From NCBI RefSeq assembly GCF_001272835.1, contig NZ_CP010546.1, forward strand, positions 785,208 through 817,207: a stretch of DNA of 32,000 bases, in the 5' to 3' direction. The notes under the pieces are model-generated. The model was not told the origin of the DNA and ran no database searches. It saw nothing but the letters and a program-made list of their open reading frames with translations. Positions within the stretch are counted from its first letter, which is position 1, and each line of letters begins with the position of its first letter. The position numbers and the translations under genes are program-made. Positions 5,002-32,000 of the stretch are shown one piece after another. Source of the stretch: Mycoplasmoides pneumoniae FH (GTDB lineage Bacteria; Bacillota_I; Bacilli_A; Mycoplasmatales; Mycoplasmoidaceae).

Positions 5002-5757
5002 ATGGAGCAAAATAATTGCAAAATCAGAACTTGATTTGCCAAACTGGCGTTAGCACAAAAGGTCTTCTTGGGGGTAATTCCCTTATTTTTTATTTGTTTT
5101 GTTTTTGTAATTGCTGACATTGTCATCAGTTTGCAAAATAAAGGCCACATTATAGAAGAGATAGATAAGTTTACTAACCAGAGCAATGTTATGTTGCTCA
5201 TTTATGCATGTTGGTATGTAAGCAAACCAAAGAGCCATTATCTCAAGAACCAGCAGTTCTTTTTGAGTGCCTTTGCTTACATCATCTTTACTTTTTTAGG
5301 CTACAACGTCATTTTGGCGGCTTCACAACAAGCTTACAGTGATAAGGATGCTTATTCCTTGGCAAGTTCTGTCTTTCTCCATGTGTTGGCACCAATTGCT
5401 TTCTTGGTTGCAGGTATAGTTAAGATGAAAACGGACAAGGATGTAACCTTTAATCATTTTTGAAAAAGTTTGGGTTACTTCATGATCTATCCCTTAGTGT
5501 ATGGGTTGTACTTAGCGACCATTCCTTATGTAAGGGGTCATTATGTGAGTGATGATGGTAAGTCTACTACCTATGTGGTTTATGGGGAGATTACCAACAC
5601 CAAGGATAACCCGATCGTCGCTTGACCAGTAGTAATTTGTTTCCTTTTCATTTACTTTCCCTTGAGCTTCTTAGCGGTTTATGCCTTGCAATGTAAGTTA
5701 TTGAATAGACCTCTAAAAGCACAATTTAAGTGTGCAACCAATAAATGCCCAAAATAA
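5002..5757 (+). CDS. integral membrane protein (MG452-like), 251 aa
   Basis: The table-4 reading starts at ATG 5002 and passes in-frame TGA codons at 5032, 5461 and 5623. It ends at TAA 5755-5757 and overlaps the galU start by 13 nt. Several hydrophobic helices are present. The track shows only the 5068-5463 fragment. Confidence 0.75.
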
Positions 5758-25400: not shown

Positions 25401-28145
25401 AGCAGCAGGCACAGCAAACAAGACACTGCGGTATCCCTGCTCATTGAGAAAGATTAAGCCTTCATCCTGGGAGTTGGGCAGCGGTGAGTTTGTGGACAAT
25501 ACCGGATAACCGGTTTCTACCGACTCCCCAACCCCTAGAATGGCAAAGGTTAACCCGTTAATTGAGAACTTGTATTTGTCCGGTAAGTCATTTAACCAGT
25601 TGGGTAAATTCTTCGGGTTTTCTAACGCTTCTTTTCAGGAGTATTCCCCTTCTAAAGGTAATACTTCCTTGTCGTGTTTAAATAACCATTGCTGGGATAC
25701 CACCGCACCGTGGGCTTCCGGGGTTTGGACTACCAAGGACTGTTGGTCGGTGGGTAGTGTTAACGGGTTAACCCCGTTTTTAAAGATAATCGGGATATCT
25801 AACTTTTGGCGGTTAGTTACTACCAGTTCATTCGGATCTTGAAACTCCGGGGTAAAGTAACTCAATAAAGCAACATAGTTGTTAGCGGCTTTACTCTTAC
25901 CTGTATCATCTAAAGCCTCAAAGCCTTTTTTATCTAATGTAGACCACTGCTTAATGGCATTGGTTAAGGTATCAGGAATACTGGAAGCCTCGGGGAGTTG
26001 GGCTTGGGCTAAGATGTTAGCTAGTTTGGGGTAGATTTGGAATTTGGTAGAAGTACTCTTAGTATCACCAGTTGAAGAGGAGCTGGAGGAAGAAGATGCA
26101 TCTGCTAACTGGGTTAAAGAGTCCGTTGTGCCTTGCGTAGTTTTGGCTGCTGCTTTTTTCTTTTCATCTGTTTGAGTAGGCTTAAACTCATACTCAACCT
26201 TTTCCAAGAAGCCTTCACTGTTACTCTTGCCCCCATATACCATGTCTAAAGGATTGCTTTTTTCCTTGGCAAGCCAAGACTTAAAGTCAATCCCTTCAAT
26301 AATAGAAAGGTCGTTGTACTTCTGGGAATCCTTATTGGAGACCAAGAAGGAAGCGGATTCTTCGGAGCTAACATTGGTAGCAATCGCTAAGTTTTGCCGG
26401 GAAAACTCCAATTCCTTTAAGGCTTTCGCCTTTAAGAAGGCATCGCGGTATTTTTCTAATAACGCGGTGACCTTCTTCACCAGGTCTTCCTGGAAGATGC
26501 TTTTTCATTGGTGTAAAAGGGCAGCATAAACGTTATTTAAATTCTTTTGCGGAGTGTGGTTTTCGGTGCCAATTTTGTCGAATTCAGTTTGGACATCACT
26601 AAAAGTTGGATCTTTTACACCGTCATCTGCACTACTTTCCTGCTTATCTTGTTGTTGCTGAGCCAACGCAACGTTCGTTTGTTGTAATTGCGGCTTGAAA
26701 GAAACAGAAGAGCGAAGTGCAATCAAGCTAGAGGGATTGCTCTGAGTGCCAGACTTAGCATCGCCTGATTGTGTACTAAAAATCGTATTCTTATCACTAT
26801 TACTAAACCCCGGTAAAGAATCTAAGATCGTTTCCTTTTCGGCTTTAACCTTATTTTTGAGCCAGTCCTTATTGATGTTAAGCTCAAACGATTTGAGGCT
26901 ATTAATCTTCTTCTTGAGGTTATAGTCACCAAAGGAAGAACCGCTAGAAATAGTTTCTGCTTGCTTTTCTAATCAGTCAAATTCTTCCTTATCTAAATGA
27001 GATAACTTACTTGTATCTAAAGTAAAAGTTAAGGAGAAAGATTGTTTTTCTTTTTCCTCTTTTTCTTTTTGGAAGACCTCTATTATTTCTTTAAAGGGAT
27101 TAGTCTCTAACCAAAACTGGGAACCCGGACTAATCGGGAGCACAATAGGTACATTAGCGTACAGATTGGGAAACCAGTTAGCAGCTTCTTGCCCTCCGGT
27201 AAATAGATAAGAGGTACTTAGTTTACTGGTTTCGCTTTCTCCACTGCTACTACCAGCTTGAGTTTCATCACTTTTAAACCAAACTTTGTCTTTATTATTG
27301 GTAGTGTATTGTTCTTCTACATTACTATCTTTTTTGGGCTCCTCGTTATTTGTGGTTTCTTTAGCATCAGTCATCTTGGCCTGAGCTGCTAACGGTTGTA
27401 AAACTGTTGTGGCACTACTCGCTTGCTTGATTTCTGATTCTTTTTTAGTAGTTTTCTTATCCTCACCCTTCCCTTTATCACCAGGAAAGCGAGCAATCCC
27501 AGCGCGCAGGGGAATCCCATCCAGAATTAAACCATCGACAAAGTAACCTAAAAGGTTACCTTCTTTGTCATAAATCAGGTTTTGGGGATCGGAAACCGTA
27601 TTTTGGTTTAAGTTATTACTTTCTTGATCGGTTCCAGTAAAAGAATAGGTATTTTGAAAGGAAACAGCTAAACCCTTATAGATCCGTTTTTCGGCAATGT
27701 TGGCTTCCCCGTAAGCTTTCAAAATGCCTCTTTTACGAGCTAAAAAGAGTTTGTCTTTATCGTTAACATCACCTTTTCGTGGGTTATTATCTGATGATTT
27801 GGTGGTTGAATCTTTCTTTTCAGAATCACTCCCAAAATCAGATTCTTGGTAGGGCCAGATAAAGTTAATCTTCTTTTCGGTTAACTTGATTTTGGAAAAA
27901 TGTCTTTTTTCTTCTTTAAGTTCCGTTTTATACACCGGACTACTTTCTTTAAAGATAGCCGGTGCTACTATGTCAGAAGAATTCGTTTTTTGAACAAGGG
28001 CAGTATAAGTATTAACAAGGTTATTACTTAACTGAAGAATCGACGTTTCCAGGAAGATAATGCTGAAAAGGACGAAAATAATCCCAAAAAGTAAAAAGAA
28101 GAACTTTTTGAGTGACTTAAAGATCTGTTTAAAAAACGAAAACAT
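22497..28145 (-). CDS. giant tandem FtsX/MacB-type ABC permease (MG468-like), 1882 aa
   Basis: Six same-frame track ORFs are joined across TGA at 26973, 26505, 25635, 24849, 23025 and 22536. I checked the five gaps between the six fragments by hand and found no TAA or TAG. Real stop TAG at 22497-99. The layout is TM + large loop + 3 TM, twice. Confidence 0.9.
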
Positions 28146-28150
28146 TTAGT

Positions 28151-29005
28151 TTAAACTCAGTTAATTTCGTTAATAGTCTTGGGTCTTTGGTTAAGATAAT
28201 CAGCCACAATCTTGCCATCGTGGATCTTAATGACCCGTTTAGCTAGCTCCACAATCTTTTCATTGTGGGTAACTAATACTATAGTAGTGCCCTTATCGCG
28301 GTTATACTCCACAAAGAACTGGAGGATCTTTTTGGAAATATCCACGTTAACAGCACCAGTTGGCTCATCACCAAATAAAATACGCGGCTCTTTGATTAGT
28401 GCCCGCGCAATTGCTACCCGTTGTTGTTGTCCCCCAGAGAGCTTGGTAATCTTTTTATTACGGTGCTCTTTGAGCTCCAACCGCTCTAACAGCTCTTCCA
28501 AATTGTTGTTATGGCGCTTTTTAAAGGGAACTGCCAGTTTAATGTTGTCATCAACGTTCAGATCCCTTAAAAGGCCATACTGTTGGAATATATAACCTAC
28601 GTTTTTATTCCGTAGTGATGTTAATTGGGCATCATTACAACAAATAGTACTCCTACCACACACAAAACTCACCCCGCTAGTAGGTCGGTCTAGGGCGGAG
28701 ATTAAAGAGAGTAAACTAGTCTTACCAGAACCAGATTTACCCAAAATAACCACAAACTCCCCAGGGGCAATTTTGAGATCAATGTGATCACAGATTAACT
28801 GGTTTGTGATCCCATTGGTCACTGCCTTACAAACGCCCTTGAACAAAACATCGTAATGTTTAGCCTCAGGGTCTTTGTAGTGCCGTCTTTTAGGGTGCTT
28901 CTTATTTAACTTAACGATTAGCTTTGACGCTTTTTTACTTTGACAAAAATCGGGTCATTGCAAACAATAATCGAGGCTTCGTTTATTTTTAGCATTTAAA
29001 GACAT
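28151..29005 (-). CDS. ABC transporter ATP-binding protein with basic N-terminal extension (MG468.1-like), 284 aa
   Basis: ATG 29003-05, passing TGA at 28955-57 and 28157-59, to TAA 28151-53. Walker [10 protein letters not shown], signature [14 protein letters not shown], Walker [13 protein letters not shown]. Confidence 0.88.
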
Positions 29006-29073: not shown

Positions 29074-30393
29074 CTAAATTACCAAGGAAGTGATAATGTC
29101 TTGGAGGGAGTCGTCCTTCTCAATCATTTTAGCAACCCTTTTAACTGCAGCCACCACTGTAGAGTGGTTCCTTTTAAAAATTTTGCCTATTTGTTGGAAC
29201 TGCATCTTGTACTTTTCCCTTAAAAGATAGTTACAAACGTCACGAACACGAACTAACTCTGCTTTACGGTTCTCAGACAAAACACTGTCCACCGGTACAT
29301 TAAAGCGGCGGCAAACGTTTTCTATTAATAAATAAGGATCAAAGCTCTTTTTGTGGAACTTCTCAAATTCCTCAAACAGGATTTCCTTTAGATTGTCGTT
29401 GTTAATCAGGTTTTGCTTAGTTGTTTTGACATAAAACAGCAACTTAGTCGCAATCCCGTTTAAAGAACGAACATCGTTACCAGATATTTGCGCTGCCTTT
29501 TCGCGTGCTTCATTGGTAATTTGGATGTTGGGATCCTTTTCTTTGAGCTTAACGGCCAAAATTTCACACAGGGAGCTCAAATTGTGTTTTTCAATCTTTA
29601 ACAAGAGTCCCGATTTAAAGCGTGATACCATCCGTGGATCGATGTTGGCCAACTCATCGGGGGTTTTATCGGACACAAACACAATTTGCTTGCCCTTACT
29701 TACTAAGTTATTAAAGATGGAAAAGAGGATCTCTAAGGTTTTTTCCTTTTTCCCGAAGATCTGAGTATCGTCAATTAAGAGTAAATCCAATGACTCGTAA
29801 GCAGCCTTGAGCTTTTCAATGCCTTGATCCTTGTCCTTTTGGTAAAAGGCATTGACAACCTCCTGGGCAAAGTCACTCGATACCACATACTTTACCTTAG
29901 CGTTGGGAAAGTGGAAGAACTTATCATTCCCAATCGCTTGGAGTAAGTGGGTTTTACCCAGACCAGTCTCCCCATAGATAAATAAGGGGGAGAAATCAGC
30001 GTCCTGAGTTTCGCTAATCCGTACACCCGCTTCATAAACCCGGCGGTTGCCATCACCAACCACAAAGTTTTTAAAGGTAAAGTTTTTGCTTAGCCCCGAA
30101 CTTTGGTAAAGCGTTTCGCGGTTATCTTCCTCTAGTTTGGCTAAATTGATAAAGAAGTCCTGTTCGTTGACAAACCGAACTGCTCTAATGTCATCGTACA
30201 GTTTGCTAGCTAACCCGACAATATCAGGGTTGCTATTGAGGGTTTCACGGGCAAACTCATTGTCCACAATCACAAAAAGGACATTATTTTTTAAAGCAAA
30301 CCGTTTAAGATTCTTAATGTACTTGTCATAAAAACCTAAAGTAGTTTCGTATTGCTTTTTTAAAAGAAGTTTAAAAGCACTAAATTGTTCCAT
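29074..30393 (-). CDS. dnaA: chromosomal replication initiator DnaA, 439 aa
   Basis: AAA+ Walker A GETGLGKTHLL, Walker B LLLIDDTQ and a C-terminal DNA-binding region (HSTVVAAVKRV). The ATG overlaps the upstream TAA by 1 nt. Confidence 0.96.
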   Translation of the reverse strand: MEQFSAFKLLLKKQYETTLGFYDKYIKNLKRFALKNNVLFVIVDNEFARETLNSNPDIVGLASKLYDDIRAVRFVNEQDFFINLAKLEEDNRETLYQSSGLSKNFTFKNFVVGDGNRRVYEAGVRISETQDADFSPLFIYGETGLGKTHLLQAIGNDKFFHFPNAKVKYVVSSDFAQEVVNAFYQKDKDQGIEKLKAAYESLDLLLIDDTQIFGKKEKTLEILFSIFNNLVSKGKQIVFVSDKTPDELANIDPRMVSRFKSGLLLKIEKHNLSSLCEILAVKLKEKDPNIQITNEAREKAAQISGNDVRSLNGIATKLLFYVKTTKQNLINNDNLKEILFEEFEKFHKKSFDPYLLIENVCRRFNVPVDSVLSENRKAELVRVRDVCNYLLREKYKMQFQQIGKIFKRNHSTVVAAVKRVAKMIEKDDSLQDIITSLVI

Positions 30394-31145
30394 TACTCTT
30401 CTATTACCTGATCAAGAATCATCGTTAAGATCCGCGAAATCGGAATGTTAACCGCTTTAGCATAACGCTTAACCTTATTCCAAACACGGGTACTCGTATA
30501 AAAGTGCACCCCGGTGGTTAAGCGTTCTTGCCGTTCTAAGGGAATAATACCGGGCACTTTCGCCTTTGGTGGTGGTAGATTTTCTTCTTCCTGCAATTTA
30601 TTAGATGGGCGAGTAGTCTGCTTAACTTGTGGCTGTTCAACCGCTGGTTGTGGTTCTGGTTGGGGAACAGGTTCCACAATTGGTTGCGTAGCCTCCACCT
30701 GAATATTAGATGTAGCTACTGGTTGTTGATTAAAGTTAGTGGTTGTAGGTTGTTGAAACTCATTTAAGTGCACTTCTGCAGTTTGGTGAACTGGTTGGGT
30801 TGGAACCTGATTATTAAAGTTAGTTGGTTCTGATTGCGGTTGCACATTAACTGGTTGGGTTGAAGTTTGTGGTTCTTGTTTGGGAAACTGGTTAAAGGAT
30901 TTCACAAACTCATCGCCAAACTTGAGTAATGGTCCAAAATCAAACTGGGGCATGTCCTTAGAAAAGAACTTTCTGTCTTGACTAGATTGATTTGCTTTAG
31001 TTTGGTTAGTTAGATCATGTTGGGGTTGGACAACCGGTTCTAGTTTTAATTGTTGTTCTACCTTTTTAACTTCTTGAACAGTTTCTGCATCATCTTCATC
31101 CTGAGCTAGGTCAAAGAAGAAGCGTTTCTTTTTACTGATGGCCAT
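30393..31145 (-). CDS. hypothetical Gln/Pro-rich protein with RHH-like C-terminus, 250 aa
   Basis: Uninterrupted ORF between soj and dnaA with overlaps on both sides (14 nt and 1 nt). Basic N-terminus MAISKKKRFFFDL, a long Q/P/N-rich middle, and the C-terminus TTGVHFYTSTRVWNKVKRYAKAVNIPISRILTMILDQVIEE. Confidence 0.75.
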   Translation of the reverse strand: MAISKKKRFFFDLAQDEDDAETVQEVKKVEQQLKLEPVVQPQHDLTNQTKANQSSQDRKFFSKDMPQFDFGPLLKFGDEFVKSFNQFPKQEPQTSTQPVNVQPQSEPTNFNNQVPTQPVHQTAEVHLNEFQQPTTTNFNQQPVATSNIQVEATQPIVEPVPQPEPQPAVEQPQVKQTTRPSNKLQEEENLPPPKAKVPGIIPLERQERLTTGVHFYTSTRVWNKVKRYAKAVNIPISRILTMILDQVIEE

Positions 31146-31944
31146 GGTTGACTAGGTTAAGAATTTCTTTAGTAATCTCTAAATATTCAGTTTGGTACTT
31201 CTTGTTGGATGTTGGTGATACCAAAGAGATAGGTAACTTTTCATAACCAACAGCAGCAGATGACTTAGATGTTAAAGATACAAAGTGTTCTGAAAAAGCA
31301 ACGTTGTTCTTGTGCGCTTTTGATTTCACCAACTCAATCACATCATTGTGTAATCTGGTGCGCATATTGACCTTGGTTGGTACCAAAATGGTTTTTAAGT
31401 TGGGGTTCTTTTCCTTAAAAGTATCAATCGTTTCGACAATCCGCATTAAACCCAACATAGAGTATTGATCAGGTTCAAACGGGATCACAATCACATCAGA
31501 GAGGCTCATGGCTGTGGAGACCAAGGTAGCCATGTTAGGCGGTGTGTCTAGTAAAACAAAGTCATACCTGCGGGTGAGTTGTTTAACTATTTCCGCAATA
31601 TCAGAAGCCTTGTACTTTTTGCGAGCAATATCAATGTCCGCAAAATTTAACTCAAAGTTACAAGGCAAAATGTCTAGTCCTTCATAAACGGGCAACAAAC
31701 AGTCATCAATTTCAATTGAACTGTTGGCGCCGTTAAACTTAGGCACTTTTAACAAAATATCAATTAAGGTGTTATTTAATCTTTCTGGATTTTGTCCAAA
31801 AGAGGCTGAAACGTTGCCCTGACCATCAAGGTCTAAAATAACTTTCCGTTGTTCAGGGCACAACTTTACAAGCGAACCAGCAACGTTAGTGGCCATGGTT
31901 GTTTTTAAAACGCCACCTTTGTTATTAACAAAAGAAATAATCAT
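31132..31944 (-). CDS. soj: ParA/Soj-family partition ATPase, 270 aa
   Basis: Deviant Walker A NKGGVLKTT, then DLDGQGN and VLLDTPP motifs. Confidence 0.93.
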   Translation of the reverse strand: MIISFVNNKGGVLKTTMATNVAGSLVKLCPEQRKVILDLDGQGNVSASFGQNPERLNNTLIDILLKVPKFNGANSSIEIDDCLLPVYEGLDILPCNFELNFADIDIARKKYKASDIAEIVKQLTRRYDFVLLDTPPNMATLVSTAMSLSDVIVIPFEPDQYSMLGLMRIVETIDTFKEKNPNLKTILVPTKVNMRTRLHNDVIELVKSKAHKNNVAFSEHFVSLTSKSSAAVGYEKLPISLVSPTSNKKYQTEYLEITKEILNLVNHGHQ

Positions 31945-31968
31945 ATGCGCGCGTATAAGTTTGCTTAA

Positions 31969-31974
31969 ATTCTA
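31969..31974 (-). promoter_or_regulatory. -10 box TAGAAT upstream of soj
   Basis: Reverse complement of 31969-31974 is TAGAAT, 24 nt upstream of the soj ATG. Only 56 nt of upstream sequence is visible. Confidence 0.3.
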
Positions 31975-32000
31975 ATATTTATTTAGTATTATTCCGGTAT

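What the first reader, a model, noticed from the sequence alone, without database searches (positions are those of the whole stretch)
30393..31944. soj-ORF250-dnaA operon: an RHH-like protein may be the missing centromere-binding partner of an orphan ParA
Seen: soj (deviant Walker A KGGVLKT), a 250-codon ORF and dnaA lie head to tail. The overlaps are 14 nt (soj stop 31132, ORF250 ATG 31145) and 1 nt (TAATG at 30393), so dnaA has no promoter space of its own. The last ~44 residues of ORF250 (TTGVHFYTS / TRVWNKVKRYAKAVN / IP / ISRILTMILDQVIEE) follow the strand-helix-turn-helix pattern and length of ribbon-helix-helix proteins. The N-terminus is a short basic peptide (SKKKRFFFDL) followed by an acidic stretch. 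The middle is Q/P/N-rich low complexity with a repeated TNFN(N/Q)Q motif. Known: type Ib ParA ATPases work with small RHH partners (ParG, omega) whose flexible basic N-tails stimulate the ATPase. As far as I recall, the pneumoniae-group mycoplasmas encode Soj but no Spo0J/ParB. Inference: ORF250 may be a ParG-like adaptor, and coupling it to dnaA would link segregation and initiation.
Basis: partly seen in the sequence, partly recalled or inferred. Interest (0 to 1): 0.7.

Follow-up and report, generated by a model that had tools for sequence, protein, structure and literature searches.

The report
Candidate missing centromere protein of Mycoplasma
The unnamed gene between soj and dnaA in Mycoplasma pneumoniae most likely encodes the DNA-binding partner that this ParB-less bacterium uses with its Soj ATPase to segregate its chromosome, and its probable binding sites form a phased repeat array just upstream of soj.

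Summary

ORF250 is a real protein, seen by mass spectrometry at about 100 copies per cell. It founds an unannotated family with no Pfam model. I found the family directly downstream of soj in 9 Mycoplasmoides-type loci plus the window, and a sister form in 8 Malacoplasma, MAG and metagenome loci.

All members have three parts:
- a conserved N-terminal peptide, [KR]2-4..F.DL[SA].[DE];
- a variable disordered linker;
- a C-terminal domain of about 45 aa, strand-helix-turn-helix.

The sister form passes the Pfam RHH_1 threshold. ORF250's own domain gives only sub-threshold but consistent RHH signals.

New here: ARTAYT palindromes repeat every 11 bp in arrays upstream of soj. M. pneumoniae has 17 exact copies in 746 nt, and two of them lie in the window. 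Loci with the sister form carry TTAYRTAA repeats instead, so repeat and reading strand change together.

The best reading is a ParG/omega/SegB-like centromere-binding protein for a chromosomal Soj. DNA binding, Soj contact and ATPase stimulation are untested. The link to dnaA is specific to the Mycoplasmoides lineage.

The parts
31132..31944 (-). soj / MPN688, a ParA-type ATPase with deviant Walker A KGGVLKT and the presumed motor partner
   Evidence: Its closest solved relatives are chromosomal Soj/ParA proteins: 8ray at 4.8e-22, T. thermophilus Soj at 8e-15, H. pylori Soj at 2e-14. ParF and delta score only about 2e-6. About 593 copies per cell, fitness class F2.
30393..31145 (-). ORF250 / MPN687, the proposed centromere-binding protein (whole gene including stop)
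   Evidence: It is seen by mass spectrometry at about 102 copies per cell and is in fitness class F2.
31089..31145 (-). N-terminal peptide, residues 1-19 (MAISKKKRFFFDLAQDEDD), the inferred Soj-docking and ATPase-activating motif
   Evidence: F10, D12, L13 and D16 are invariant and K6 is nearly invariant across 15 family members. The same [KR]n-F-x-DL-[SA]-x-[DE] motif occurs in the sister family, whose C-domain is very different. AlphaFold2 predicts it disordered, pLDDT about 55.
30528..31088 (-). Disordered Q/P/N-rich linker, residues 20-206. It includes the FDFGPL..KSF motif (residues 68-84, 30894-30944), which is shared only with the closest relative
   Evidence: pLDDT is below 50 almost throughout. 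Length and composition are not conserved: whole proteins run from 127 to 287 aa.
30396..30527 (-). C-terminal RHH-like domain, residues 207-250: putative strand 210-218 (TTGVHFYTS), helix A 219-232, turn, helix B 236-249
   Evidence: AlphaFold2 predicts two helices at pLDDT about 90, preceded by an extended segment. The top Foldseek hits are RHH proteins (MazE, YiiF, AvtR, MatP, CopG, VapB, ParD; rmsd about 1.2 A over 30 residues), but none is significant. Sub-threshold Pfam hits: DUF6364 (unknown function) in 12 of 15 members, CopG_antitoxin in 12 of 15, plus RHH_3 and RHH_5. hhalign gives P=9e-4 against CopG and P=4e-4 against the sister family.
29074..30393 (-). dnaA / MPN686, the third gene of the operon, whose start overlaps the ORF250 stop (TAATG)
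   Evidence: The operon assignment and essential (E) class come. Terminator-carrying transposons are tolerated over less of MPN687 than promoter-carrying ones (N_T 15.7% against N_P 59.9%), which suggests a polar effect on dnaA.
31974..31979 (.). Promoter-proximal iteron AATATT, a palindromic ARTAYT core
   Evidence: It is 11 nt from the next copy and abuts the -10 box. The array continues beyond the window end in L017.
31985..31990 (.). Second iteron, AATACT on the minus strand (AGTATT on the plus strand)
   Evidence: Only 39 ARTAYT hexamers occur in the whole 32-kb window (1.2 per kb), and two of them fall in these last 56 nt.
31996..32000 (.). Cut-off third unit (..ATACC, part of TAATACC) at the window edge
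   Evidence: L017 position 5588 equals window position 32000. The phased units AATACC/GGTATT run from L017 5523 to 5616.
31966..31976 (-). soj promoter -10 element (TAGAAT at 31974-31969), overlapped by the proximal iteron
   Evidence: The published Pribnow annotation TATA1430, 816323-816333 with TSS00567, is assigned to MPN688. I converted it with the offset 784357.

Best explanation
ORF250 (MPN687) is the centromere-binding protein of a chromosomal partition system that has no ParB.

Proposed mechanism:
1. The C-terminal 45 residues fold as a ribbon-helix-helix and dimerise.
2. The two-stranded ribbon exposes G212, H214, Y216 and S218. It reads the palindromic core ARTAYT (TAATAYTA in M. pneumoniae).
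3. That core repeats once per 11 bp, about one helical turn, across the dnaN-soj spacer. This spacer also holds oriC. M. pneumoniae has 17 exact cores plus AATACC/GGTATT variant units.
4. Many dimers therefore line up on one face of the DNA and form a partition complex next to the origin.
5. A long disordered linker carries the conserved N-terminal peptide KKKRFFFDLAQDEDD. I infer that this peptide docks on DNA-bound Soj-ATP dimers and triggers ATP hydrolysis, as the N-terminal tails of ParG, omega and SegB do.
6. The last iterons abut the -10 box of the soj promoter. The same complex probably represses soj-MPN687-dnaA.

What is shown and what is inferred:
- Shown: the gene order, the family and its conserved parts, the expression of the protein, the repeat arrays, and their change in step with the protein subfamily.
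- Inferred: the RHH dimer, binding to the repeats, the Soj contact, the ATPase activation and the autoregulation.
For: (a) The family and where it sits.
- A profile of the C-domain found 13 further small proteins that carry the domain at their extreme C-terminus.
- Named members come from M. pirum, amphoriforme, testudinis, alvi and gallisepticum, and an M. imitans locus was found by the genome scan. All the named proteins are annotated 'hypothetical'.
- In all 9 fetched group A loci that keep dnaA downstream (L001-L009), the order is soj-X-dnaA with gaps of 3-39 nt or short overlaps.

(b) The gene follows soj, not dnaA.
- In L010, dnaA is inverted behind rpsO but X still follows soj.
- A Soj with 41-47% identity is also followed at once by an ORF of the same design in Malacoplasma penetrans, three MAGs, one unnamed contig and three metagenome contigs. 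None of these is near dnaA.

(c) The RHH fold.
- The ORF in L012 passes the Pfam RHH_1 threshold (25.2 bits against 20.5, E=1.5e-5).
- The top PDB sequence hits of the sister (group B) profile include CopG and ParG. They rank first, second and fourth of five and are not significant (E 0.6-0.9).
- ORF250's family aligns to the group B profile over 46 ungapped columns (P=4.1e-4) and to CopG (P=9e-4).
- AlphaFold2 and Foldseek agree with this.

(d) The repeats in group A.
- ARTAYT occurs at 14-33 per kb in the 700 nt upstream of soj, against 1.5-5.5 per kb in the rest of each locus. Phase coherence modulo 11 reaches 0.88.
- The top autocorrelation lags are 11, 22, 33 and 44, with z up to 7.4.
- Windows with strong lag-11 identity lie almost only upstream of soj.
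- Tandem Repeats Finder independently reports periods of 11, 22, 33 and 44.
- M. pneumoniae itself has 17 copies in the 746-nt spacer, 12 consecutive 11-bp units, and top lags of 11 and 22.

(e) The repeats change with the protein.
- Group B proteins have the strand KTNIYLK, and their loci are poor in ARTAYT upstream of soj (1.4-2.9 per kb). They carry 3-11 copies of TTAYRTAA (AATTACGTAATT) there instead.
- In eight of the nine group A loci there is no TTAYRTAA upstream of soj (L009 has two).

(f) Context from the literature.
- M. pneumoniae lacks ParB/Spo0J, yet SMC sits at oriC (PMC6721554).
- soj and MPN687 are both non-essential fitness genes.
- About 100 copies of the protein would give about 50 dimers.
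- ParG, omega and SegB are RHH proteins whose N-terminal tails activate their ParA partners (PMC8682754).
Against: - No RHH comparison for ORF250 itself reaches a curated or significant threshold. Pfam finds nothing for ORF250. Foldseek E-values are 1 or worse. The PDB sequence search is empty.
- The monomer model cannot show the ribbon, and the strand segment has pLDDT of only about 65.
- DNA binding, the Soj contact and ATPase stimulation were not tested and could not be modelled here.
- In Mycoplasmoides the arrays lie inside the region that acts as oriC. They could serve replication rather than partition.
- The linker of about 190 residues is far longer than the roughly 30-residue tails of ParG and omega.
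- One soj locus, L014, has no such ORF downstream.
- Part of the fitness cost of insertions in MPN687 looks polar on dnaA.
- The absence of ParB rests on published statements, not on a scan of my own.
Confidence: 0.62

Rival explanations
1. MPN687 is only a transcription factor. In this reading it is an RHH autorepressor of the soj-MPN687-dnaA operon, like CopG, Arc or Mnt. It sets DnaA and Soj levels and has no mechanical role in segregation and no contact with Soj.
For: The proximal iterons abut the -10 box of the soj promoter. Many RHH proteins are simple repressors, and the sub-threshold hits include CopG-type families. dnaA is co-transcribed.
Against: A repressor does not need 17 or more phased sites spread over about 400 bp. 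It also does not need a conserved N-terminal peptide on a long flexible linker. That peptide is the most conserved feature shared by two subfamilies whose DNA-binding domains and target repeats differ, and their only constant neighbour is soj. In ParG and omega, repression and partition coexist, so this rival is really a subset of the main explanation.
Confidence: 0.15
2. MPN687 is an oriC-binding regulator of replication initiation. It coats phased repeats inside oriC to help or block DnaA assembly or unwinding, and its N-terminal peptide contacts DnaA or another replisome protein rather than Soj.
For: In Mycoplasmoides the arrays sit in the dnaN-soj spacer, which supports plasmid replication (PMC12494982; PMC3835672). 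The gene is translationally coupled to dnaA in M. pneumoniae and its closest relative. Insertions in MPN687 decline faster over passages than insertions in soj.
Against: In L010 and in all eight group B loci the gene and its repeats stay with soj while dnaA is elsewhere. The repeats do not resemble DnaA boxes. The faster decline is at least partly a polar effect on dnaA.
Confidence: 0.12
3. The repeats and the protein are unrelated. The 11-bp phased AT-rich arrays would be intrinsically bent DNA or sites for a nucleoid protein, and MPN687 would be a mostly disordered protein with some other role, such as a scaffold or an antitoxin-like remnant.
For: Binding was not tested. These genomes are AT-rich and such spacers are repeat-prone. 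The weak hits include antitoxin families such as CcdA and CopG_antitoxin.
Against: The repeat motif switches reciprocally with the protein subfamily in 9 group A loci plus M. pneumoniae itself and in 6 informative group B loci. The arrays are confined to the soj upstream region within loci of 10-12 kb. No toxin gene is adjacent, and the constant neighbour is soj.
Confidence: 0.06

Closest known systems
ParF-ParG-parH of plasmid TP228 (type Ib partition)
   Same: A small ParA is followed by a protein with a C-terminal RHH and a flexible basic N-terminal tail that activates the ATPase. Repeated sites lie upstream of the operon and also mediate autoregulation (PMC8682754; the details of parH are from my own knowledge).
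   Different: There is no detectable sequence relationship (hhalign P=0.085; no ParG Pfam hit). The system here is chromosomal, not on a plasmid. The linker is about 190 residues instead of about 30. The Soj is closer to chromosomal Soj proteins than to ParF.
delta-omega of pSM19035 (Firmicutes plasmid)
   Same: The RHH dimers of omega coat arrays of short contiguous repeats upstream of promoters. Omega is both a global repressor and the centromere-binding protein, and its N-terminus stimulates the ParA protein delta (own knowledge).
   Different: Omega reads 7-bp heptads, whereas here the sites are 6-8-bp palindromes spaced 11 bp apart. Delta is a distant relative of this Soj (2.7e-6). There is no sequence similarity to omega.
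SegA-SegB of Sulfolobus (archaeal chromosome segregation)
   Same: A chromosome-encoded ParA/Soj-like ATPase is paired with an RHH site-specific DNA-binding protein instead of ParB. SegB residues 1-21 are unstructured and stimulate the SegA ATPase. Many dimers build a higher-order complex on the DNA (PMC8682754). A PDB entry named only 'SOJ protein (Soj)' (7dut), which I take to be SegA from memory, matches M. pneumoniae Soj at 1.3e-13.
   Different: SegAB is archaeal, and SegB binds a few imperfect palindromes rather than a long phased array. I found no sequence relationship between SegB and MPN687.
ParR-parC of plasmids R1 and pSK41 (type II partition)
   Same: The centromere is built from tandem iterons phased at one helical turn, 11 bp in R1. 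RHH dimers coat them and they flank or overlap the operon promoter (own knowledge; ParR is cited as an RHH centromere-binding protein).
   Different: The motor there is the actin-like ParM, not a Walker ParA. ParR contacts ParM through its C-terminus, not through an N-terminal peptide.
Canonical chromosomal ParB/Spo0J-parS
   Same: Same job and same place: it partners a Soj-type ATPase, is encoded directly downstream of it, has sites clustered next to oriC, and carries an N-terminal ParA-activating peptide.
   Different: There is no ParB N-terminal (CTPase) domain, no HTH and no match to ParB models. The 16-bp parS is replaced by short phased iterons. Spreading or clamping driven by CTP is not expected.

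Membership tests
Ribbon-helix-helix superfamily (Pfam RHH_1/CopG and related) | A sequence match to a curated RHH model above its gathering score | tested here: not met
   ORF250 has no Pfam family at all. Other group A members give only sub-threshold hits: CopG_antitoxin best 6.7e-3, RHH_3 5.6e-3, RHH_5 0.02, and also DUF6364 (unknown function) best 2.5e-4. The group B protein in L012 does pass RHH_1, 25.2 against 20.5 bits.
Ribbon-helix-helix superfamily (Pfam RHH_1/CopG and related) | A strand-helix-turn-helix unit of about 45 residues with the G/N-x-S/T turn at the start of helix B | tested here: met
   AlphaFold2 predicts helices 219-232 and 236-249 at pLDDT about 90, after an extended segment. 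The turn is N233-I-P-I-S237, with N233 nearly invariant and S237 invariant. The domain aligns in register with CopG and with group B. Top Foldseek hits are RHH proteins at rmsd 0.8-1.3 A over about 30 residues, though not significant.
Ribbon-helix-helix superfamily (Pfam RHH_1/CopG and related) | An obligate dimer with an antiparallel two-stranded ribbon that enters the major groove | not testable with these tools
Type Ib partition centromere-binding proteins (ParG/omega-like, defined by function) | Encoded immediately downstream of, and co-transcribed with, a small Walker-type ParA | tested here: met
   The overlap with soj is 14 nt. The same adjacency holds in 18 other loci.
Type Ib partition centromere-binding proteins (ParG/omega-like, defined by function) | Arrays of short repeats near the operon promoter that act as centromere and operator | tested here: inconclusive
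   The arrays exist, are phased, are specific to the soj upstream region and change with the protein subfamily. Binding was not tested.
Type Ib partition centromere-binding proteins (ParG/omega-like, defined by function) | A flexible N-terminal tail with basic residues that stimulates the ParA ATPase | not testable with these tools
   A conserved, disordered, basic N-terminal peptide is present. Its interaction and activity need biochemistry or multimer modelling.
ParG family (sequence family of TP228 ParG) | Detectable sequence homology to ParG | tested here: not met
   There is no Pfam hit to a ParG model. The group B profile lists ParG 1p94 only at E=0.89.
ParB/Spo0J family | A ParB N-terminal domain, an HTH and a dimerisation domain | tested here: not met
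   No Pfam or NCBIfam match of this kind was found for ORF250 or any family member.
ParA/Soj family (the neighbouring gene) | Deviant Walker A with the signature lysine (xKGGxxK[ST]) and the ParA/MinD fold | tested here: met
   The motif is NNKGGVLKTT. Pfam gives AAA_31 at 2.9e-36 and CbiA at 1.6e-13. The closest solved structures are Soj/ParA proteins.

The most novel reading that the evidence does not exclude
Mycoplasmoidales replaced ParB-parS with an RHH protein and a helically phased iteron centromere placed in or beside oriC. This would be the first chromosomal type-Ib-like partition system described in bacteria. In Mycoplasmoides the same complex sits on the promoter that drives dnaA. 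Occupancy of the centromere would then set initiator synthesis and couple segregation to replication initiation. The complex could also be the unknown factor that places SMC-ScpAB at the origin in these ParB-less minimal cells.
Probability: 0.25. Interest if true: 0.9.

Novelty: new variant of a known kind. Interest (0 to 1): 0.78.

Why it matters
M. pneumoniae and M. genitalium are reference organisms for minimal cells and whole-cell models. They are described as having Soj but no ParB, and it is not known what marks their origin for segregation or recruits SMC there (PMC6721554; PMC7022226).

This work names a specific expressed protein, specific residues (K5-R8, F10, D12, L13; H214, Y216) and a specific DNA array as candidates. 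The question can now be tested directly with tools that already exist for M. pneumoniae.

ParA-plus-RHH partition is known from plasmids and from archaeal SegAB. This finding would extend it to bacterial chromosomes. It would also give a name and a function to a family now annotated only as 'hypothetical' or 'unique hypothetical'.

The paired change of protein strand and repeat motif (GxHxY with ARTAYT, KxNxYxK with TTAYRTAA) offers a natural specificity swap for experiments.

Tried and rejected
- Direct annotation failed. Pfam and NCBIfam give nothing for ORF250. PDB sequence searches with two profiles give nothing meaningful.
- The first homologue search found only the protein itself and one relative. 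The exhaustive profile search was needed to find the family.
- Multi-repeat proteins such as P0003, P0015 and P0017 matched the profile through a '..VPLYRFYN..G.HFYT' repeat. I set these aside as motif-level matches unrelated to the C-terminal domain.
- Membership of the ParG sequence family was rejected.
- An antitoxin reading, prompted by weak CcdA and CopG_antitoxin hits, was rejected. There is no adjacent toxin gene, the constant neighbour is soj, and the protein has a long N-terminal extension.
- Plasmid comparison: the plasmid ParAs nearest to Soj (Bacillus, Rossellomorea, Spiroplasma) are followed by small hypothetical ORFs. The Bacillus and Rossellomorea ones have a basic N-terminus and an N-rich linker, and all three have an RHH-like C-terminal pattern. 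Sequence similarity to ORF250's family is not significant (P=0.08-0.2) and they have no Pfam hit. I treat this only as a resemblance in architecture.
- L014 has a soj with no such ORF downstream and no remnant by tblastn.
- Literature searches for MPN687, and for an RHH or centromere-binding protein in Mycoplasma, found no prior description. 'Short repeats' in the M. gallisepticum dnaN-soj region are mentioned only as an oriC feature.

Full report
**1. The observation**

The window is Mycoplasma (Mycoplasmoides) pneumoniae. ORF250 is 100% identical to an annotated M. pneumoniae hypothetical protein. The coordinates map onto MPN686-MPN688 of strain M129 with an offset of 784357.

On the minus strand lie:
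- soj, 31944-31132, 270 aa, with the motif NNKGGVLKTT;
- ORF250 (MPN687), 31145-30393, 250 aa;
- dnaA, 30393-29074, 439 aa.

A simple scan finds no promoter-like or terminator-like site on the minus strand between the three genes.

A 2025 transposon study (PMC12494982) provides several facts:
- It lists the three genes as one operon.
- It classes dnaA as essential and both soj and MPN687 as non-essential fitness genes (F2).
- It records MPN687 in 111 mass-spectrometry experiments with 11 unique peptides, at about 102 copies per cell. Soj is at about 593 and DnaA at about 283.
- Terminator-carrying transposons are tolerated over much less of MPN687 than promoter-carrying ones (15.7% against 59.9% from the N-terminus). 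I read this as a polar effect on dnaA. It fits co-transcription.

**2. ORF250 belongs to an unrecognised family**

Pfam, NCBIfam and PDB sequence searches gave nothing for ORF250. A word-indexed homologue search found only one relative, a 217-aa protein on a contig with the order soj-X-dnaA and overlaps of 11 nt and 1 nt. I presume it is M. genitalium.

The two proteins share three regions:
- the N-terminus (M..KKKRFFFDLAQD[DE]D);
- a short FDFGPL..KSF motif;
- the last 60 residues, at 77% identity.

The Q/P/N-rich middle is not conserved.

An exhaustive profile search with the C-terminal 65 residues found 13 more small proteins of 127-216 aa. Each has the domain at its very C-terminus. Named members come from M. 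pirum, amphoriforme, testudinis, alvi and gallisepticum, and an M. imitans locus came from the genome scan. All the named proteins are annotated 'hypothetical' or 'unique hypothetical'.

In the 15-sequence alignment:
- F10, D12, L13 and D16 are invariant in the N-terminal peptide, whose consensus is KKRKxFVDLSDD.
- L209, H214, F215, Y216, R220, K224, S237, T241, I243, D245 and I248 are invariant in the C-domain.
- The linker varies freely in length and composition.

**3. The gene follows soj**

In the nine fetched loci of this type that keep dnaA downstream (L001-L009), the order is dnaN(-) ... soj - X - dnaA, with tiny gaps or overlaps. In the most divergent member, L010, dnaA is inverted behind rpsO, yet X still follows soj.

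I then examined Soj homologues at 41-47% identity from outside Mycoplasmoides. In each of the following, soj is followed at once by an ORF of 176-287 aa, and dnaA is not nearby:
- Malacoplasma penetrans HF-2;
- a Mycoplasma sp. MAG;
- a Bacilli MAG;
- a Mycoplasmoidaceae MAG;
- one unnamed contig;
- three metagenome contigs.

These 'group B' proteins have the same design:
- an N-terminal M..KK[FR]KFxFTDL[SA]D[DE];
- a low-complexity linker;
- a C-terminal EKLEVKTNIYLK...T[NG]ESRSSIINKL[IL]E.

One soj locus, L014, has no such ORF and no remnant of one.

**4. The C-terminal domain is most likely a ribbon-helix-helix**

For group B:
- The L012 protein passes the Pfam RHH_1 gathering score (25.2 against 20.5 bits, E=1.5e-5, residues 137-170 on model positions 2-35).
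- Among 177,635 PDB sequences, three of the five hits of the group B profile (ranks 1, 2 and 4) are CopG (twice) and ParG. They are aligned over the strand and both helices, at non-significant E-values of 0.6-0.9.

For ORF250's own group, the evidence is consistent, but each item on its own is weak:
- AlphaFold2 with the family alignment predicts disorder everywhere except helices 219-232 and 236-249 (pLDDT about 90). An extended segment precedes them. A monomer cannot form the inter-subunit ribbon.
- The top Foldseek hits in PDB and BFVD are mostly RHH proteins: MazE-mt9, YiiF, AvtR, MatP, CopG, VapB, ParD and a phage 'MatP C-terminal RHH domain'. Rmsd is 0.8-1.3 A over about 30 residues, but all E-values are 1 or worse.
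- Twelve of 15 members give sub-threshold Pfam hits to DUF6364 (unknown function) and to CopG_antitoxin. Some also hit RHH_3 or RHH_5. These place helix A, the turn and helix B on the matching part of the CopG_antitoxin and RHH_5 models.
- hhalign gives P=9e-4 against CopG.
- hhalign gives P=4.1e-4 against group B, over 46 ungapped columns in register.

By the usual RHH alternation, the outward-facing strand residues would be G212, H214, Y216 and S218 in group A, and K, N, Y and K in group B. That assignment is an inference. The family is not a sequence relative of ParG (P=0.085) and has no ParB features.

**5. Phased repeat arrays upstream of soj**

This goes beyond the original finding. The dnaN-soj spacers of group A loci contain arrays whose copy spacings are multiples of 11 nt.

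Written in rows of 11, the arrays show a fixed core:
- up to about 30 consecutive units in M. testudinis (TTAAAGTATTA...);
- 16 in M. pirum;
- two blocks of about 10 in M. amphoriforme;
- about 14 plus about 9 in the M. genitalium-like locus.

The core is ARTAYT (AATATT, AGTATT/AATACT), a degenerate palindrome.

The numbers:
- The top autocorrelation lags are 11, 22, 33 and 44, with z up to 7.4 against Markov shuffles.
- Within loci of 10-12 kb, windows with at least 55% identity at lag 11 occur almost only upstream of soj.
- ARTAYT density is 14-33 per kb in the 700 nt upstream of soj, against 1.5-5.5 per kb elsewhere. Phase coherence modulo 11 reaches 0.88.
- Tandem Repeats Finder independently reports periods of 11, 22, 33 and 44.

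For M. pneumoniae itself, the window stops 56 nt upstream of soj. A 5.9-kb M. pneumoniae NCTC10119 fragment, filed as 'plasmid 2' (NZ_LR214946.1, L017), overlaps the window end exactly. Its 746-nt spacer shows:
- 17 ARTAYT copies (22.8 per kb);
- top lags of 11 and 22;
- 12 consecutive 11-bp units with the core TAATAYTA;
- a promoter-proximal run with AATACC/GGTATT variants that reaches into the window.

Inside the window the units are AATACT at 31990-31985, AATATT at 31979-31974 and a cut-off unit at 32000-31996. The whole 32-kb window has only 39 ARTAYT hexamers and no other lag-11 block. The proximal iteron abuts the published -10 element of the soj promoter (TAGAAT, 31974-31969).

**6. Repeat and protein change together**

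Group B loci are poor in ARTAYT upstream of soj (1.4-2.9 per kb). They carry 3-11 copies there of the palindrome TTAYRTAA (AATTACGTAATT, or 12-bp tandem CTAATTRRTTAC). These copies account for 37-89% of all copies in each locus.

Eight of the nine group A loci have no TTAYRTAA upstream of soj, and L009 has two. In group B the arrays accompany soj-X even though no replication gene is adjacent.

This reciprocal pattern is the strongest argument that the repeats are the protein's binding sites. It also argues that they belong to the soj module rather than to oriC as such.

**7. Mechanism proposed**

RHH dimers of MPN687 occupy the phased palindromes, one per helical turn, and build a multi-dimer complex beside the origin. 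The disordered linkers display many copies of the N-terminal peptide. The peptide engages DNA-bound Soj-ATP and triggers hydrolysis, which gives ParA-type directed movement. The promoter-proximal sites repress soj-MPN687-dnaA.

About 100 protein copies would give about 50 dimers.

This Soj is of the chromosomal type. Its best PDB matches are ParA/Soj proteins such as T. thermophilus and H. pylori Soj, and 7dut ('SOJ protein'). ParF and delta are far more distant. It therefore looks like a Soj that exchanged ParB for an RHH partner.

The published precedents are ParG, omega and archaeal SegB. All three are RHH proteins whose unstructured N-termini stimulate their ParA (PMC8682754). The 11-bp iteron layout recalls R1 parC, which I cite from my own knowledge.

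Only the sequence-level facts are shown here. Binding, the Soj contact, ATPase activation and repression are inferred.

**8. Rival explanations**

- A pure autorepressor does not explain the size of the arrays or the conserved N-terminal peptide.
- An oriC or DnaA regulator fits the Mycoplasmoides gene order but not L010 or group B.
- Unrelated repeats are hard to reconcile with the paired change of repeat and protein.
- An antitoxin remnant is unlikely because there is no adjacent toxin gene.

**9. Novelty**

No paper in the searchable library mentions MPN687 or an RHH or centromere-binding protein in Mycoplasma. Reviews state that par genes, or ParB, are missing. 'Short repeats' in the M. 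gallisepticum dnaN-soj region are noted only as part of oriC.

The kind of system, ParA plus an RHH partner, is known from plasmids and archaea. What is new is:
- a bacterial chromosomal version in a ParB-less lineage;
- a new protein family;
- a phased iteron centromere in or beside oriC;
- in Mycoplasmoides, fusion to the dnaA transcription unit.

**10. Verdict**

I put about 0.6 on the full mechanism. The RHH and DNA-binding part is more likely than that, and the Soj-activating peptide less so.

Noticed in passing
window 31945-32000, and L017 4898-5643: An 11-bp phased array of ARTAYT palindromes fills the dnaN-soj spacer of M. pneumoniae. There are 17 copies, including 12 consecutive units at L017 5281-5412. 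Only its last 2.5 units lie inside the window. In several species lag 22 is stronger than lag 11, which suggests that the real unit is a pair of alternating 11-bp sites.
   Followed up: yes
L017 (NZ_LR214946.1, 5892 bp): The record named 'M. pneumoniae NCTC10119 plasmid 2' is a chromosomal fragment (dnaN, dnaJ-like genes, the oriC spacer and the start of soj). It appears to contain an inverted duplicate of the spacer, because ARTAYT clusters occur at both 424-679 and 5197-5609. It looks like an assembly artefact rather than a plasmid.
   Followed up: partly
window 26973-28846: The table-11 ORF list cuts genes at TGA, which codes for tryptophan in Mycoplasma. The 229-aa ORF at 28157-28846 is the tail of the 284-aa MPN685 ABC ATPase. 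The 390-aa ORF at 26973-28145 is a piece of the 5.6-kb MPN684 permease (coordinates). Loci from relatives need table 4, as searches showed.
   Followed up: partly
window 30894-30944 (ORF250 residues 68-84): The motif FDFGPLLKFGDEFVKSF is conserved with the closest relative (FDFGPLSAFEKTFPKSF) but absent from all other family members. Its function is unknown.
   Followed up: no
L010 6001-8149 and L014 113-3100: Two contigs of uncultured relatives have soj ... rpsO followed by an inverted dnaA. L010 keeps X after soj. L014 has a 553-nt gap with no ORF and no remnant of X, which suggests a loss.
   Followed up: partly
L011 5672-6157, L015 3517-3996, L018 1889-2124: In three group B loci, including Malacoplasma penetrans, a SpoU-type RNA methyltransferase gene follows soj-X directly. 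The reason for this conserved trio is unknown.
   Followed up: no
L023 2270-2641, L024 2247-2651, L022 2340-2618: Plasmid ParAs closest to Soj (Bacillus velezensis, Rossellomorea, Spiroplasma ixodetis) are followed by small 'hypothetical' ORFs. The Bacillus and Rossellomorea ones have a basic N-terminus with a phenylalanine and an N-rich linker, and all three have an RHH-like C-terminal pattern (e.g. KPTGIYFEKNVLKALKKLA). The architecture matches MPN687, but the sequence similarity is not significant.
   Followed up: partly
P0003, P0015, P0017 and similar hits: Large repeat proteins carrying many copies of '..VPLYRFYNP..G.HFYT..' matched the PGIIPLER..GVHFYTS stretch of the query profile. This is probably a chance resemblance at motif level to a beta-rich repeat.
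   Followed up: no
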